A stretch of 64,000 nucleotides of DNA from Escherichia coli 042 (GCF_000027125.1 NC_017626.1), one strand, 5' to 3'. Shown: positions 26,224-38,063, numbered from the stretch's first letter. The notes: generated by a model from the letters alone, not told the origin. Numbers and translations: made by a program.

Positions 26224-28145
26224 TCATCCTCTCCGGATAAGGCACGGGCGTAATCTGCCAGTGTTTTCTTGTTGGTTGCTGCACCATCCTCTTCCTGCAG
26301 GCTCGCCAGCAGTGCACTGAGATCCAGCTGCCAGCGGGAAATACTGATGCGCAGCGCCGCCAGCGCATAAACGAAGCAGTCGAGCGCCTCATTGCGTCGC
26401 TTTTTGCTGTCCCACAGTATTTTTTTCCTGCCATCCACCCATTTTTCGACCTGCTCTTCAGCAGTCAGCTGCTGCGCTTCGGTCAGATCAAAAATATCCG
26501 GGTTATTCGGGAAGTGAACGGCACCGGGAAGCGGTTCATCCCCTTCCGGCGTCAGTGTGAAGCGGTTATAAATCTGCTCTTTCGCGGTATCCGTACCGAT
26601 TTCGGTAAGGTAAACCCCGTTTTTGTTTCGCTTACGAGGCATGCTGGCCACCGGCTTACCGTAGACGGATGCCCCTTTAATGGGGATCACCCGGAACAGC
26701 CCATGCTTTTTCGAGCGTTCATACACAATGGTCGGGTCAATCCCGCCAATATCCCAGCAGATACGGGATATCGACATTTCTGCACCATTCCGGCGGGTAT
26801 AGGTTTTATTGATGGCCTCATCCACACGCAGCAGCGTCTGTTCATCGTCGTGGCGGCCCATAATAATCTGCCGATCAATCAGCCAGCTTTCCTCACCCGG
26901 CCCCCATCCCCATACGCGCATTTCGTAGCGATCCAGCTGGGAGTCGATACCGGCGGTCAGGTAAGCCACACGGTCAGGAACGGGCGCTGAATAATGCTCT
27001 TTCCGCTCTGCCATCACTTCAGCATCCGGACGTTCGCCAATTTTCGCCTCCCACGTCTCACCGAGCGTGGTGTTTACGAAGGTTTTACGTTTTCCCGTAT
27101 CCCCTTTCGTTTTCATCCAGTCTTTGACAATCTGCACCCAGGTGGTGAACGGGCTGTACGCTGTCCAGATGTGAAAGGTCACACTGTCAGGTGGCTCAAT
27201 CTCTTCACCGGATGACGAAAACCAGAGAATGCCATCACGGGTCCAGATCCCGGTCTTTTCGCAGATATAACGGGCATCAGTAAAGTCCAGCTCCTGCTGG
27301 CGGATGACGCAGGCATTATGCTCGCAGAGATAAAACACGCTGGAGGGGTCATCCGGCGTCCATTTGAGGCCAAACGGCGTCTCTTTGTCGCCAAATTTAA
27401 GATACTGCTCCTCCCCGCAGTGCGGGCAGACAACATGAAAACGCATAAAATGCGGGGATTCACTGGCTGCACGCTCAATCTGGCAGGTGCCTCTCACTTT
27501 GGGCGTGGAGCCACGGATGGACTTTGGCCAGACCGAGCCTTCAATACGTTTGTCGCCAAGGAACGTCGGAGAGCCTTCCTGTTCAATATCCTCATCAAAG
27601 GCAGCAAGTTCATCATAACCCGCCACATCCACCGACTTTTCACGGTAGTTTTTTGCCGCTTTACCGCCCAGGCACCAGAAGCCACGACCATTGGTAAAAC
27701 GCTTCATGGTGAGCGTGTTATCCCGGTGCTTTTTGCCATACCACGGTGCCAGCGCCAGCAGCGACGGAATATCACGGATAGTCGGCTCAACGTGGGTTTT
27801 CATAAAGTTCTCGGCATCACCATCCGTCGGCAACCAGATAAGGGTGTTGCGCTGCTTATGCTCTATGAAGTAGGCATAAACACCCAACAGCATTTTGGAA
27901 TAACCGACACGGGCAGACTTCACCACATTCACCTCACGGATGTAGTCGCTGCCCATCGCATTCATGATGGCCCGCTGAAAGGGCAGTGTTTCCCAGCGCC
28001 CTTCCTGGTATGCGGATTCTTTCGGGAGATAGTAATTGGCATCCGCCCATTCAACGGCGGTCTGTGGCTCCGGCCTGAACAGTGAGCGAAGCCCGGCGCG
28101 GACAAAATGCCGCAGCCTGTTAACCTGACTGTTCGATATATTCAC
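26220..28145 (-). CDS. A: terminase large subunit A
   Basis: 641 aa, same length as lambda gpA. Confidence 0.95.
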   Translation of the reverse strand: MNISNSQVNRLRHFVRAGLRSLFRPEPQTAVEWADANYYLPKESAYQEGRWETLPFQRAIMNAMGSDYIREVNVVKSARVGYSKMLLGVYAYFIEHKQRNTLIWLPTDGDAENFMKTHVEPTIRDIPSLLALAPWYGKKHRDNTLTMKRFTNGRGFWCLGGKAAKNYREKSVDVAGYDELAAFDEDIEQEGSPTFLGDKRIEGSVWPKSIRGSTPKVRGTCQIERAASESPHFMRFHVVCPHCGEEQYLKFGDKETPFGLKWTPDDPSSVFYLCEHNACVIRQQELDFTDARYICEKTGIWTRDGILWFSSSGEEIEPPDSVTFHIWTAYSPFTTWVQIVKDWMKTKGDTGKRKTFVNTTLGETWEAKIGERPDAEVMAERKEHYSAPVPDRVAYLTAGIDSQLDRYEMRVWGWGPGEESWLIDRQIIMGRHDDEQTLLRVDEAINKTYTRRNGAEMSISRICWDIGGIDPTIVYERSKKHGLFRVIPIKGASVYGKPVASMPRKRNKNGVYLTEIGTDTAKEQIYNRFTLTPEGDEPLPGAVHFPNNPDIFDLTEAQQLTAEEQVEKWVDGRKKILWDSKKRRNEALDCFVYALAALRISISRWQLDLSALLASLQEEDGAATNKKTLADYARALSGEDE

Positions 28146-28665
28146 TCAGCAACCCCGGTATCAGTTCATCCAGCGCGGCTGCTTTGTTCATGGCTTTGAT
28201 GATATCCCGTTTCAGGAAATCAACATGTCGGTTTTCCAGTTCCGGAAAACGCCGCTGCACCGACAGGGGGATCCCGTCGAGAATACTGGCAATTTCACCT
28301 GCGATCCGCGACAGCACGAAAGTACAGAATGCGGTTTCCACCACTTCAGCGGAGTCTCTGGCATTTTTCAGCTCCTGTGCGTCGGCCTGCGCACGCGTAA
28401 GTCGATGGCGTTCGTACTCAATAGTTCCTGGCTGGAGATCTGCCTCGCTGGCCTGCCGCAGTTCTTCAACCTCCCGGCGCAGCTTTTCGTTCTCAATTTC
28501 AGCATCCCTTTCGGCATACCATTTTATGACGGCGGCAGAGTCATAAAGCACCTCATTACCCTTGCCACCGCCTCGCAGAACGGGCATTCCCTGTTCCTGC
28601 CAGTTCTGAATGGTACGGATACTCGCACCGAAAATGTCAGCCAGCTGCTTTTTGTTGACTTCCAT
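28120..28665 (-). CDS. nu1: terminase small subunit Nu1
   Basis: 181 aa MEVNKKQLADIFGASIRTIQNWQEQGMPV... as in lambda Nu1. Confidence 0.9.
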   Translation of the reverse strand: MEVNKKQLADIFGASIRTIQNWQEQGMPVLRGGGKGNEVLYDSAAVIKWYAERDAEIENEKLRREVEELRQASEADLQPGTIEYERHRLTRAQADAQELKNARDSAEVVETAFCTFVLSRIAGEIASILDGIPLSVQRRFPELENRHVDFLKRDIIKAMNKAAALDELIPGLLSEYIEQSG

Positions 28666-28669
28666 TGTT

Positions 28670-28900
28670 CATTCCACGGACAAAAACAGAGAAAGGAAAC
28701 GACAGAGGCCAAAAAGCTCGCTTTCAGCACCTGTCGTTTCCTTTCTTTTCAGAGGGTATTTTAAATAAAAACATTAAGTTATGACGAAGAAGAACGGAAA
28801 CGCCTTAAACCGGAAAATTTTCATAAATAGCGAAAACCCGCGAGGTCGCCGCCCCGTAACCTGTCGGATCACCGGAAAGGACCCGTAAAGTGATAATGAT
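28670..28900 (-). other. cos region; cosN 12-nt cohesive end at 28843..28854
   Basis: Reverse complement of 28661..28854 matches the lambda left end (GGGCGGCGACCTCGCGGGTTTTCGCTATTTATGAAAATTTTCCGG...) as I remember it, directly upstream of nu1. Confidence 0.8.
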
Positions 28901-29053
28901 TATCATCTACATATCACAACGTGCGTGGAGGCCATCAAACCACGTCAAATAATCAATTATGACGCAGGTATCGTATTAATTGATCTGCATCAACTTAACG
29001 TAAAAACAACTTCAGACAATACAAATCAGCGACACTGAATACGGGGCAACCTC

Positions 29054-29287
29054 ATGTCAACGAAGAACAGAACCCGCAGAACAACAACCCGCAACATCCG
29101 CTTTCCTAACCAAATGATTGAACAAATTAACATCGCTCTTGAGCAAAAAGGGTCCGGGAATTTCTCAGCCTGGGTCATTGAAGCCTGCCGCCGGAGACTG
29201 TGCTCAGAAAAAAGAGTTTCTTCTGAAGCAAACAAAGAAAAGAGTGACATTACTGAATTGCTCAGAAAACAGGTCAGACCAGATTGA
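29054..29287 (+). CDS. hypothetical 77-aa protein, possible ribbon-helix-helix DNA-binding fold
   Basis: ORF with basic N-terminus (MSTKNRTRRTTTRNIRFPNQMIEQINIALEQKGSG...) about 200 bp beyond cos. Confidence 0.4.
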   Translation: MSTKNRTRRTTTRNIRFPNQMIEQINIALEQKGSGNFSAWVIEACRRRLCSEKRVSSEANKEKSDITELLRKQVRPD

Positions 29288-29344
29288 AGCAATTTAGATA
29301 ATCGTGCAGACTACGCCCCCTCATATCACATGGAAGGTTTATCT

Positions 29345-37093: not shown

Positions 37094-37214
37094 CAGAATC
37101 CTTCCGGATAATTAGCTCTCCCCTTTAAGGGACCATCCCTCTTATCCCTGCGCGCTACTTAAGTATTTTTGATTCTATTCCGGCACCGTCCAGAACTTCA
37201 AACGCGTTGAAAAT

Positions 37215-37245
37215 AAAAACAAAAACCCGCCGAAGCGGGTTAAGT
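37215..37245 (-). terminator. rho-independent terminator of the relB-relE-hokD operon
   Basis: Minus-strand hairpin aacccgcttcggcgggtt followed by TTTGTTTTTATTTTC. Confidence 0.6.
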
Positions 37246-37309
37246 GCGGGTGCGTTGAGGATGCCTGCCACATCAGAGGTGGCGAGGGATTTCTCCCCCG
37301 CCGGGTCTC

Positions 37310-37465
37310 TTACTCCTCAGGTTCGTAAGCTGTGAAGACAGCGACCTCCGTCTGGCCGGTTCGGATTCGTACCTCGCAGAGGTCTTTCCTCGTTACCAGT
37401 GCCGTCACTATGACGGTTAAACAGATGACGATCAGGGCGATTAACATCGCCTTTTGCTGCTTCAT
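37310..37465 (-). CDS. hokD: type I toxin HokD (RelF), 51 aa
   Basis: Manual translation MKQQKAMLIALIVICLTVIVTALVTRKDLCEVRIRTGQTEVAVFTAYEPEE; below ORF-track cutoff. Confidence 0.85.
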   Translation of the reverse strand: MKQQKAMLIALIVICLTVIVTALVTRKDLCEVRIRTGQTEVAVFTAYEPEE

Positions 37466-37536
37466 AGCCTGCTTCTCCTGTCAACGCAAAGCAGAAGTGT
37501 CACCTTCGGTGCGAAACAGAGATGTCATGCTTTGGT

Positions 37537-37824
37537 TCAGAGAATGCGTTTGACCGCCTCGCTATATACTTCCGAGCGTTCTCTTTTCCCAACAGAAATC
37601 ACGAAAACGACAACTTTCTCGTCTATAACCTGGTATACAAGGCGATAGCCTGAAGACCGGAGCTTAATCTTGTAACAATCAGGCATACCACGGAGCTTGT
37701 TTGCTTCAATCCGGGGTGACTCAAGTACTTCAACCAGCTTCTTTTTCAACTGTTCACGTACCGTCGAGCCCAGCTTTCGCCATTCCTTTAGTGCCCGCTC
37801 GTCAAAATCCAGAAAATACGCCAT
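37537..37824 (-). CDS. relE: type II toxin RelE (mRNA interferase)
   Basis: 95-aa ORF MAYFLDFDERALKEWRKLGSTVREQLKKKL... Confidence 0.9.
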   Translation of the reverse strand: MAYFLDFDERALKEWRKLGSTVREQLKKKLVEVLESPRIEANKLRGMPDCYKIKLRSSGYRLVYQVIDEKVVVFVISVGKRERSEVYSEAVKRIL

Positions 37825-38063
37825 CAGAGTTCATCCAGCGTCACACGTACTGGCTTAGGATTACGAAGCCGTTCTTTCACTATCTCCACAAGTTCAGCAT
37901 CTTCATCACTCAGGAGTGTCTGTTTGAACGGCAAGCGTTCATTGTCAGCGATATACTCGAGCATGAGACGAAGCGCTTCAGAAGGAGTTACACCCATTTT
38001 TTCAAGCGCGGCGTAAGAACGCGCTTTAAGTTCATCGTCAATACGCAGGTTAATGCTACCCAT
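37824..38063 (-). CDS. relB: type II antitoxin RelB
   Basis: 79-aa ORF MGSINLRIDDELKARSYAALEKMGVTPSEALRLML...; stop overlaps relE start. Confidence 0.9.
   Translation of the reverse strand: MGSINLRIDDELKARSYAALEKMGVTPSEALRLMLEYIADNERLPFKQTLLSDEDAELVEIVKERLRNPKPVRVTLDEL

What the first reader, a model, noticed from the sequence alone, without database searches (positions are those of the whole stretch)
28120..38063. Mosaic architecture: lambda-like late genes joined to Qin-type lysis and accessory modules
Reverse complement of about 28661..28854 matches the lambda left end including the 12-nt cohesive end as I remember it, and nu1, A, H, E and D are very close to the lambda proteins as I recall them. 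Beyond cos the content switches to Qin-type genes: ydfO, gnsB, cspI, rzoQ/rzpQ, rrrQ, ydfR, essQ, cspB, cspF, quuQ, ydfU, rem, relBE-hokD. The junction is within a few hundred bp of cos. The cold-shock paralogs, Gns protein and toxin-antitoxin genes are accessory cargo (morons) sitting between core phage modules.
Basis: partly seen in the sequence, partly recalled or inferred. Interest (0 to 1): 0.35.

Follow-up and report, generated by a model that had tools for sequence, protein, structure and literature searches.

The report
Undeleted Qin prophage with lambda-type late genes
The region is the near-complete form of the well-known E. coli prophage Qin, in which lambda-type packaging, head and tail genes sit next to a phage-21-type lysis cassette and small accessory genes. 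This is ordinary, already documented lambdoid mosaicism, not a new junction.

Summary
The minus strand of window 28843-28854 is lambda's 12-nt cohesive end. Window 17330-29216 is 98.6% identical to lambda, and Nu1, A, D and E are 99.1-99.7% identical as proteins. Every listed Qin gene is 98.6-100% identical to K-12.

Near-identity to lambda ends at 29191-29216, which is 337-362 bp past the cos nick and inside ynfO. An 84% patch follows (ydfO versus lambda p78, to 29774), then nothing.

The interpretation needs correcting. This is not lambda joined to Qin; it is Qin itself. The prophage (about 3613-51233) sits at K-12's Qin site. K-12 Qin is nearly identical to the E. coli W copy (99.95%) apart from a clean 21,053-bp deletion from stf to nu1, so the lambda-type late operon is ancestral to Qin.

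The same arrangement occurs in 392 of 5,426 complete E. coli genomes and in the deposited phage genome PhiR42_1.

The lysis cassette is phage-21 type, with no homology to lambda S, R or Rz.

The accessory-cargo reading fits: low GC, own terminators, cspA-type leaders, and presence/absence differences between related phages.

This copy carries two private lesions: a 1-bp frameshift in tape-measure gene H, and a 108-bp deletion that truncates RzpQ.

Already known; low interest.

The parts
3613..51233 (-). Whole Qin-type lambdoid prophage. Imperfect att core repeats lie at about 3613-3630 and 51216-51233 (GAAATCCATAA is shared).
   Evidence: Collinear with phage PhiR42_1 and with the K-12 'cryptic prophage Qin' feature.
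10364..29216 (-). Lambda-type late block: J (except its C-terminal end), I, K, L, M, H, T, G, V, U, Z, FII, FI, E, D, C/Nu3, B, W, A, nu1, cos and 362 bp of the lambda right end.
   Evidence: 96.1% (10364-17127) and 98.6% (17330-29216) nucleotide identity to lambda. Protein identities 94-100% except H, 87%.
28120..28665 (-). nu1 (terminase small subunit; called nohA in K-12).
   Evidence: 99.4% identical to lambda Nu1; 98.9% identical to K-12 NohA over residues 1-176.
26220..28145 (-). A (terminase large subunit).
   Evidence: 99.5% identical to lambda A.
15736..18314 (-). H (tape measure). It is split into ORFs 17829-18314 and 15736-17928 by a 1-bp deletion in a C5 run near 17942. Patches at 17128-17329 and about 15832-15931 are divergent.
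   Evidence: The 44-mer across the deletion occurs in only 3 of 5,426 genomes.
28843..28854 (-). The 12-nt cohesive end within cosN (GGGCGGCGACCT on the minus strand).
   Evidence: Identical to lambda bases 1-12.
28426..28801 (-). Patch of lambda-type alleles covering the 5' part of nu1 and the sequence between the nu1 start and cosN (lambda 54-429). All 11 discriminating sites match lambda rather than K-12, W or PhiR42_1. That this interval holds cosB and encodes the Nu1 DNA-binding domain is from my own knowledge of lambda.
   Evidence: Five-way alignment.
29191..29216 (.). Mosaic breakpoint where near-identity to lambda collapses (lambda 48166-48141). It lies inside ynfO at about codon 50.
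29054..29287 (+). ynfO (DUF3950).
   Evidence: 100% identical to K-12 YnfO. Pfam PF13132. The first 49 residues are identical to an unannotated lambda ORF.
29345..29755 (+). ydfO (DUF1398), a homologue of lambda p78.
   Evidence: 100% identical to K-12 YdfO; 79% protein and 84% nucleotide identity to lambda p78.
29859..31112 (-). Low-GC accessory cluster: gnsB (29907-30083, with a predicted terminator at 29859-29880), ynfN, ynfR, ynfQ, and cspI (30754-30966, with a cspA-type leader extending to 31112).
31329..32776 (-). Phage-21-type lysis cassette: essQ holin (32561-32776), ydfR (32245-32556), rrrQ lysozyme (31700-32248), rzpQ remnant (31332-31727) and embedded rzoQ (31379-31633). A 108-bp deletion lies at 31722/31723.
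   Evidence: Pfam PF04971, PF00959 and PF10721. Deletion mapped. Lambda S, R and Rz give no tblastn hit.
32945..34574 (.). Accessory cluster between Q and the holin: ynfU (+), cspB (33530-33745, minus strand, with a cspA-type leader to 33906), cspF (34046-34258, +), ynfS, and a predicted terminator at 34551-34574.
34680..36495 (-). quuQ/ydfT (Q-family antiterminator, 34683-35432) and ydfU (DUF968, 35449-36495).
   Evidence: 100% and 99.7% identical to K-12. Pfam PF03589 and PF06147. 33% identical to lambda Q.
36842..38063 (-). rem (36842-37093), hokD (37310-37465, with a predicted terminator at 37224-37241), relE (37537-37824) and relB (37824-38063).
   Evidence: 100% identical to K-12. Terminator. 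Absent from the otherwise collinear phage PhiR63_1.

Best explanation
The window carries the undeleted form of the E. coli lambdoid prophage Qin, integrated at the usual site between ydfJ and rspB.

Its late transcription unit runs on the minus strand in this order:
- the Q-family antiterminator QuuQ;
- a cargo cluster (cspF, cspB, ynfU);
- a phage-21-type lysis cassette (EssQ holin, YdfR, RrrQ lysozyme, RzpQ/RzoQ spanins);
- a second cargo cluster (cspI, ynfQ, ynfR, ynfN, gnsB);
- the oppositely oriented ydfO and ynfO;
- a lambda-identical cos;
- a lambda-type nu1-to-J head and tail operon, then lom, stf and tfa.

Shown here: lambda and Qin-type phages share the late operon and cos at 96-99% identity. 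The shared block ends 337-362 bp beyond the cos nick, inside ynfO. The K-12 Qin remnant matches the W copy of this phage apart from a 21-kb deletion from stf to nu1.

Inferred: the boundary arose long ago by recombination between lambdoid phages. It is maintained, and locally reshuffled, by homologous recombination within the shared late genes. That would explain why the late region is a fine patchwork of lambda-like and W-like alleles, including a 0.4-0.8 kb lambda-type tract next to cos.

Inferred from their positions: the csp, gnsB, relBE and hokD genes are independently regulated cargo, inserted where lambda carries orf-64, bor and the nin region.

This particular copy is probably no longer able to make infectious particles or lyse normally, because H is frameshifted and the RzpQ membrane anchor is deleted. 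This holds only if neither lesion is a sequencing error.
For: - cos and both lambda ends are read directly from the sequence.
- BLAST blocks and a 500-bp identity table against lambda, K-12, W and PhiR42_1.
- A single-base map around cos places the breakpoint at 29191-29216.
- Protein identities to lambda and to K-12.
- E. coli W annotation shows the same gene order between pinQ and int, next to rspB.
- K-12 equals W minus 21,053 bp, with 99.95% identical flanks and a 2-bp overlap at the joint.
- 392 of 5,426 complete genomes hold at least 80% of window 20000-40000 in one place.
- The deposited phage genome PhiR42_1 (48.7 kb) is collinear and 99.2% identical over that stretch.
- Pfam assigns a P21-type holin, a phage lysozyme and a Q antiterminator.
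- Among sites where lambda and W differ, the window matches lambda at 141 and W at 148. These alternate in 39 runs of three or more sites.
- Archer et al. 2011 list Qin at ydfJ in strains W, K-12, B and Crooks (PMC3032704).
- De Paepe et al. 2014 show that lambda recombines with defective prophages through such homologies, with about half of the sequenced lambda-DLP12 junctions next to cos (PMC3945230).
Against: - No direct evidence here that this copy is inducible. H is frameshifted and rzpQ is truncated.
- The direction and date of the ancient exchange cannot be recovered from these data. Either Qin acquired a lambda-type late operon, or lambda acquired a different lysis module.
- The promoter scan found no more sigma-70-like sites than shuffled sequence gives. 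Independent transcription of the cargo genes rests on predicted terminators, cspA-type leaders and published K-12 work.
- I could not find the paper behind PhiR42_1, so its status as an infectious phage rests on the database record alone.
Confidence: 0.9

Rival explanations
1. A recent hybrid: phage lambda (wild or laboratory) recombined with a resident defective Qin. The result would be a lambda carrying Qin's Q, lysis and cos region, like the historical lambda qin derivatives. That comparison is from my own knowledge (Espion et al. 1983, J Mol Biol 170:611); the library shows only that the term qin111 occurs in PMC5069750.
For: Very high identity to lambda over 11.9 kb. There is also a tract next to cos (28426-28801) where the window carries lambda alleles rather than those of other Qin copies. 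Lambda does recombine with Qin experimentally (PMC3945230).
Against: The element uses Qin's own attachment site, int, xis, exonuclease, dicA/dicC immunity and replication genes. It has no homology to lambda beyond the late block.

The late block differs from lambda by 1.4-4% and has divergent patches in H, the J C-terminus, lom (44% protein identity) and stf. It matches W alleles as often as lambda alleles.

The same architecture is found in 392 complete genomes, and K-12 Qin derives from it by deletion.
Confidence: 0.04
2. Two separate prophages lying side by side, or an assembly chimera: a lambda-like element abutting a Qin remnant, with the apparent junction an artefact of juxtaposition.
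For: There is an abrupt GC shift at about 29 kb, from 57% to 32-43%. Lambda homology ends sharply.
Against: There is one att pair, one integrase and one cos. The gene order is continuous and collinear with a 48.7-kb phage genome record.

The same junction sequence is present in K-12, W and PhiR42_1, which are 99.8-100% identical to the window over 29001-30000. Hundreds of independent complete assemblies carry the arrangement.
Confidence: 0.01
3. The lambda-type late operon was acquired by a Qin-type phage relatively recently, so K-12's nohA and stfQ remnants reflect that same acquisition rather than deep ancestry. The junction would be a real recombination joint, but younger than the Qin lineage.
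For: Late genes are 96-99% identical to lambda while the rest of the genome shares nothing with it. That pattern is what a horizontally exchanged module would show. Other phages combine the same late block with different early and lysis regions, for example Stx2k and PhiR49_1.
Against: This differs from the main explanation only in timing, which these data do not resolve. All Qin copies examined (K-12, W, PhiR42_1 and the window) share the identical breakpoint, so the event precedes their common ancestor.
Confidence: 0.05

Closest known systems
Cryptic prophage Qin of E. coli K-12 (b1544-b1579), and the fuller Qin copies of E. coli W and other strains
   Same: Same chromosomal site (ydfJ to rspB). 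Same genes at 98.6-100% protein identity, from pinQ/tfaQ and nohA through relB. The dicC, dicA, dicF, dicB and ydfD region is also the same. 99.4% identical to the E. coli W copy over window 20000-40000.
   Different: K-12 lacks window 6920-28137 (stf 5' part through nu1 3' end), 39549-44349 (transposase and replication region) and 47836-50021 (exonuclease, xis and int 5' part, replaced by IS2).

The window differs from W by the H frameshift, the 108-bp rzpQ deletion, a divergent stf segment and a lambda-type tract next to cos.
Bacteriophage lambda (NC_001416)
   Same: Identical 12-nt cohesive end, and identical sequence from lambda 48167 through the end-join to base 429. Same order of all late genes from nu1 to J. 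96-99% nucleotide identity.
   Different: No homology in int/xis, recombination, immunity or replication genes (O 33% over a fragment). Q is only 33% identical. S, R, Rz and bor have no match. The J C-terminus, lom and stf are divergent. The attachment site is different.
Escherichia phage PhiR42_1 (PV340562) and PhiR63_1 (PV340573)
   Same: PhiR42_1 is collinear with the whole prophage, with the Qin-type part above 99.5% identical. PhiR63_1 shares the late operon, the lysis cassette and the gnsB and csp clusters.
   Different: PhiR42_1 has an intact H and rzpQ, and differs by 11 bases in the 100 bp just right of cosN. PhiR63_1 lacks relBE-hokD-rem and ynfO-ydfO, and has a different nin-like region.
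Phage 21 / DLP12-type lysis cassette (pinholin, SAR endolysin, spanins)
   Same: EssQ matches the Pfam 'Bacteriophage P21 holin S' family. RrrQ is a phage lysozyme with a hydrophobic N-terminus. The spanin genes are embedded one within the other.
   Different: An extra gene, ydfR (DUF1327), lies between the holin and the endolysin. In this copy the RzpQ i-spanin has lost its N-terminal membrane anchor. That anchor is what I infer the hydrophobic residues in the deleted codons to be.

Membership tests
Qin prophage | Integrated between ydfJ and rspB, with short att repeats at the ends. | tested here: met
   Host flanks align to K-12 on both sides. The prophage limits coincide with the K-12 'cryptic prophage Qin' feature. 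An imperfect 17-18-bp repeat lies at 3613-3630 and 51216-51233.
Qin prophage | Qin gene set, including the dicC, dicA, dicF and dicB control region. | tested here: met
   All K-12 Qin proteins from ydfK to ydfD are found at 98.6-100% identity, apart from stfQ (85.6% over residues 49-320). NohA, YdfX and RrrQ align just short of full length, and rzpQ is truncated. DicF matches Rfam at 46375-46426.
Qin prophage | K-12 Qin can be derived from the complete form by simple deletions. | tested here: met
   K-12 versus E. coli W shows flanks 99.95% identical around a single 21,053-bp gap with a 2-bp overlap. The two further K-12 gaps are mapped.
Lambda-type late operon and cos (genus Lambdavirus structural module) | Lambda cos: the 12-nt cohesive end and its flanking sequence. 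| tested here: met
   100% identity from lambda 48167 through the end-join to base 429. From my own knowledge, cosQ, cosN and cosB lie within that interval.
Lambda-type late operon and cos (genus Lambdavirus structural module) | Complete, collinear set of late genes from nu1 to J with high identity. | tested here: met
   All 20 proteins from Nu1 to J are found in order at 87-100% identity.
Lambda-type late operon and cos (genus Lambdavirus structural module) | All essential late genes have intact reading frames, so the module is functional. | tested here: not met
   H is split by a 1-bp deletion in a C run near 17942. This could be a homopolymer sequencing error.
Phage-21-type lysis cassette | Holin of the P21 S family followed by a lysozyme-type endolysin. 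| tested here: met
   PF04971 at E=4e-34 and PF00959 at E=1e-23. The hydrophobic N-terminus of RrrQ is visible in the translation. Its signal-anchor-release behaviour is inferred, not tested.
Phage-21-type lysis cassette | Intact two-component spanin (inner-membrane and outer-membrane subunits). | tested here: not met
   RzoQ is 100% intact. RzpQ lacks codons 1-36, including the hydrophobic N-terminal stretch (presumed membrane anchor) and the start codon.
Morons (independently transcribed cargo genes in lambdoid phages, as defined by Hendrix and colleagues; definition from my own knowledge) | Base composition differs from the neighbouring phage genes. | tested here: met
   GC is 0.35 for gnsB-cspI, 0.38 for ynfU-cspF and 0.32 for ydfO. 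The late operon is 0.57, the lysis cassette 0.47 and quuQ-ydfU 0.51. relBE (0.47) and hokD (0.52) do not stand out.
Morons (independently transcribed cargo genes in lambdoid phages, as defined by Hendrix and colleagues; definition from my own knowledge) | Own promoter and own terminator. | tested here: inconclusive
   Terminator-like hairpins lie directly after gnsB, cspF/ynfS and hokD, and one lies about 280 bp downstream of cspB. In all, 16 were found against 10.0 +/- 3.8 expected. Promoter-like sites are no more frequent than chance (19 against 19.2). cspA-type thermoregulator leaders at cspB and cspI reach Rfam gathering scores.
Morons (independently transcribed cargo genes in lambdoid phages, as defined by Hendrix and colleagues; definition from my own knowledge) | Present or absent between otherwise collinear phages. 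| tested here: met
   relBE-hokD-rem and ynfO-ydfO are absent from PhiR63_1, which shares the flanking modules. Lambda carries bor and orf-64 at the positions of the csp and gnsB clusters. The csp and gnsB clusters themselves are present in both PhiR phages.

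The most novel reading that the evidence does not exclude
The lambda-allele tract of 0.4-0.8 kb next to cos (28426-28801) may be a natural footprint of recombination stimulated by cos cleavage, between a co-resident lambda-type phage and this Qin prophage. It covers the 5' part of nu1 and the sequence between the nu1 start and cosN. From my own knowledge, that interval encodes the DNA-binding part of Nu1 and holds its cosB binding sites. If so, the exchange would move the packaging-specificity pair (cosB and the Nu1 DNA-binding domain) as a single unit. 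Together with the private H and RzpQ lesions, the copy would be caught at the first step of the decay that produced K-12's Qin.
Probability: 0.35. Interest if true: 0.2.

Novelty: already known. Interest (0 to 1): 0.1.

Why it matters
It matters little beyond correct annotation. The region should be labelled as a near-complete Qin prophage, not as a lambda/Qin hybrid.

It does give a clear picture of what K-12's cryptic Qin used to be. It is also a textbook example of lambdoid module exchange at cos, of cargo genes sitting between Q, the lysis genes and cos, and of early prophage decay.

The cold-shock, Gns, RelBE, HokD and DicBF genes studied in K-12 as 'cryptic prophage' genes are here part of a phage that is complete except for two small lesions. 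A close relative of it exists as a deposited phage genome.

Tried and rejected
- Loci fetched by accession seemed to be missing from the script machine. They were in fact stored inside multi-record files, which resolved.
- Literature searches for the source of the PhiR42_1 and ECOR-derived phage records found nothing usable. A first search on Qin, nohA and cos was mostly noise but did yield PMC3945230.
- Rejected the idea of a recent lambda x Qin laboratory-type hybrid. The att site, int and immunity region are Qin's, and the late block is not lambda-identical.
- Rejected tandem prophages or an assembly chimera. There is a single att pair and a single cos, and the region is collinear with a phage genome and 392 complete genomes.
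- The promoter scan gave no signal above shuffled sequence, so I make no claim from it.
- No tRNA genes are present in the window.
- I did not use the large protein-database, structure-prediction or metagenome tools. Every gene here has a near-identical annotated counterpart, so they would add nothing.

Full report
**1. What is in the sequence**

On the minus strand, window 28854..28843 reads GGGCGGCGACCT. The bases before it are ...CCGACAGGTTACG. This is exactly the joined right and left ends of phage lambda.

BLASTN against a lambda record in prophage order (DE3) gives three blocks:
- window 10364-17127 at 96.1%;
- window 17330-29216 at 98.6% over 11.9 kb;
- a short block, 29271-29774, at 84%.

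Nothing else in the 64 kb resembles lambda.

All twenty lambda late proteins from Nu1 to J are found in lambda order. Nu1 is 99.4% identical, A 99.5%, D 99.1% and E 99.7%.

H is the exception. It is 87% identical over residues 124-853 and its reading frame is broken (see section 5).

**2. Where the boundary lies**

I aligned the window, lambda, K-12, E. coli W and phage PhiR42_1 across 28137-29230.
- From 28802 to 29190 the window, lambda, K-12 and W are identical.
- From 29191 the window follows K-12 and W, while lambda accumulates mismatches and is unalignable after 29216.
- In lambda coordinates that is 48166-48141, or 337-362 bp beyond the cos nick.

The breakpoint falls inside ynfO, at about codon 50. 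Lambda carries an unannotated 64-codon ORF (48303 down to 48109) whose first 49 residues are identical to YnfO.

After a 54-bp gap, ydfO aligns to lambda gene p78 at 84% nucleotide and 79% protein identity. All homology ends at 29774.

'Within a few hundred bp of cos' is therefore right, with a weaker tail of homology reaching 0.9 kb.

On the other side, lambda-like sequence fades in the C-terminal part of J (about 10364). Lom is 44% identical and the side tail fibre 69-75%, while Tfa is 95% identical.

**3. What the element is**

The interpretation needs correcting. The host flanks and most of the right-hand part of the prophage align to K-12 at its Qin locus:
- window 1-6920, 98.2%;
- 28137-39549, 99.6-99.96%;
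- 44349-47836, 99.9%;
- 50021-55371, 98.7%.

The prophage runs from about 3613 to 51233 between imperfect att repeats. These limits match the K-12 'cryptic prophage Qin' feature.

The annotated E. coli W genome has the same element. Its gene order runs pinQ, tfaQ, stf, lom, J through nu1 (annotated nohA), ynfO, ydfO, gnsB through relB, the dic region, exonuclease, xis, int, and then rspB.

K-12 compared with W shows flanks 99.95% identical on either side of a single clean 21,053-bp gap. The gap runs from inside stf to near the 3' end of nu1, with a 2-bp overlap at the joint. K-12's nohA is the first 176 codons of nu1.

The lambda-type late operon is therefore part of Qin's ancestry, and K-12's Qin is a deletion remnant of this kind of phage. 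The window does not show lambda genes joined to Qin modules; it shows Qin before the deletions.

This is already in the literature:
- Archer et al. 2011 list a lambda-type Qin at ydfJ in strains W, K-12, B and Crooks (PMC3032704).
- At least 80% of window 20000-40000 is found in one place in 392 of 5,426 complete E. coli genomes.
- The K-12-type deletion joint is found in 454 genomes.
- A deposited phage genome, PhiR42_1 (48.7 kb, host given as ECOR13), is collinear with the whole prophage and 99.2% identical over 20-40 kb.

**4. How it most likely works**

The gene order is shown. All late functions lie on the minus strand, in this order:
- QuuQ/YdfT, a Q-family antiterminator (Pfam PF03589), only 33% identical to lambda Q.
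- A low-GC cluster: cspF, cspB, ynfU.
- A lysis cassette of phage-21 type: EssQ (P21 holin family), YdfR, RrrQ (phage lysozyme with a hydrophobic N-terminus), and RzpQ with the embedded RzoQ.
- A second low-GC cluster: cspI, ynfQ, ynfR, ynfN, gnsB.
- The oppositely oriented ydfO and ynfO.
- cos.
- The late genes from nu1 to J.

Lambda S, R, Rz and bor have no counterpart in the window. The lysis module is therefore a non-homologous replacement, not a diverged lambda cassette.

By analogy with lambda, I infer that Q-modified transcription reads through the lysis genes and across cos into the head and tail genes. I also infer that terminase (Nu1 and A) cuts at a cos indistinguishable from lambda's.

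The mosaic boundary is best explained by old recombination between lambdoid phages, followed by continuing homologous exchange within the shared late genes:
- Where lambda and W differ, the window matches lambda at 141 sites and W at 148 sites.
- These sites alternate in 39 runs of three or more.
- One such run, 28426-28801, covers the 5' part of nu1 and the sequence up to 42 bp from the cohesive end. All 11 discriminating sites there carry lambda alleles, unlike K-12, W and PhiR42_1.
- That this interval holds cosB and encodes Nu1's DNA-binding region is from my own knowledge of lambda.

De Paepe et al. 2014 showed experimentally that lambda picks up DNA from DLP12, Qin and Rac through such homologies. 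About half of the sequenced lambda-DLP12 junctions lay next to cos (PMC3945230).

**5. State of this copy**

Two lesions distinguish the window from lambda, W and PhiR42_1.

The first is a 1-bp deletion in a run of five C's near 17942. It splits tape-measure gene H into ORFs 17829-18314 and 15736-17928. The 44-mer across it occurs in only 3 of 5,426 genomes. This could be a homopolymer sequencing error.

The second is a 108-bp deletion at 31722/31723. It removes the last two codons and stop of rrrQ and codons 1-36 of rzpQ. The lost rzpQ codons include the start codon and a hydrophobic N-terminal stretch, presumably the membrane anchor. The junction 44-mer is absent from all 5,426 genomes.

If both lesions are real, this copy cannot build tails and lacks an anchored inner-membrane spanin subunit. 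It would then be in an early stage of the decay seen in K-12.

**6. The cargo reading**

For:
- Composition supports it for the csp, gnsB and ydfO segments: GC is 0.32-0.38, against 0.57 in the late operon and 0.47-0.51 in the lysis and Q genes.
- Terminator-like hairpins lie directly after gnsB, cspF/ynfS and hokD.
- cspB and cspI each carry a cspA-type thermoregulator leader above the Rfam gathering score.
- Phage PhiR63_1 shares the late, lysis and csp/gnsB modules but lacks relBE-hokD-rem and ynfO-ydfO.
- Lambda has orf-64 and bor at the equivalent positions.

Against, or untested:
- relBE and hokD do not differ in GC.
- The promoter scan was no better than chance.
- The csp and gnsB clusters travel with the lysis cassette in both PhiR phages.

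The reading is reasonable and is the conventional one.

**7. Verdict**

This is a real, correctly located feature, but an ordinary and already documented one. It is a near-complete Qin prophage showing the standard lambdoid mosaic with lambda. Novelty: already known. Interest: low.

Noticed in passing
window 17942 (H gene, 15736-18314, minus strand): A 1-bp deletion in a C5 run frameshifts tape-measure gene H relative to lambda, W and PhiR42_1. The exact 44-mer occurs in only 3 of 5,426 complete E. coli genomes. It is either a real inactivating mutation or a homopolymer sequencing error.
   Followed up: partly
window 31722/31723 (rrrQ-rzpQ overlap): A 108-bp deletion relative to K-12, W and PhiR42_1. 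It removes the rrrQ stop (leaving a new 7-residue tail) and the first 36 codons of rzpQ, including the hydrophobic N-terminal stretch (presumed membrane anchor). rzoQ is intact. There is no flanking direct repeat, and the junction is absent from 5,426 complete genomes.
   Followed up: yes
window 28426-28801: A short tract covering the 5' part of nu1 and the sequence between the nu1 start and cosN carries lambda alleles at all 11 sites that distinguish lambda from K-12, W and PhiR42_1. It is bounded by Qin-type alleles at 28372 and 29191. It looks like a gene-conversion patch next to cos. From my own knowledge, this interval holds cosB.
   Followed up: partly
window 17128-17329 and 15832-15931: Two patches inside H align poorly or not at all to lambda, W and PhiR42_1. 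The first is 202 bp replacing 184 bp. Other E. coli genomes do carry this H allele at 99.8-99.9% identity.
   Followed up: partly
window 40752-40923 (minus strand): An Rfam 'sok antitoxin' match (104 bits against a gathering score of 59) lies in the segment missing from K-12, next to a 437-codon ISNCY-type transposase ORF (39365-40678). This suggests a second hok/sok-like locus distinct from hokD.
   Followed up: no
window 6920-7500: A segment of the side tail fibre gene (6223-9192) has almost no alignment to K-12, W or PhiR42_1, and the neighbouring parts are only 89-92% identical. The stf central region is a separate variable cassette.
   Followed up: no
window 5682-5880 (minus strand): An Rfam IS009 match (221 bits) lies inside the tfaQ coding region.
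   Followed up: no
lambda NC_001416 48109-48303 (L002), equivalent to window 29054-29287: Lambda has an unannotated 64-codon ORF whose first 49 residues are identical to YnfO (DUF3950). The RefSeq record annotates nothing between p79 and the right end.
   Followed up: partly
NZ_CP026085.1 (hit H5): A record labelled 'E. coli strain DH5alpha' carries the full-length Qin with late genes, like strain W and unlike K-12 derivatives. The record may be mislabelled.
   Followed up: no
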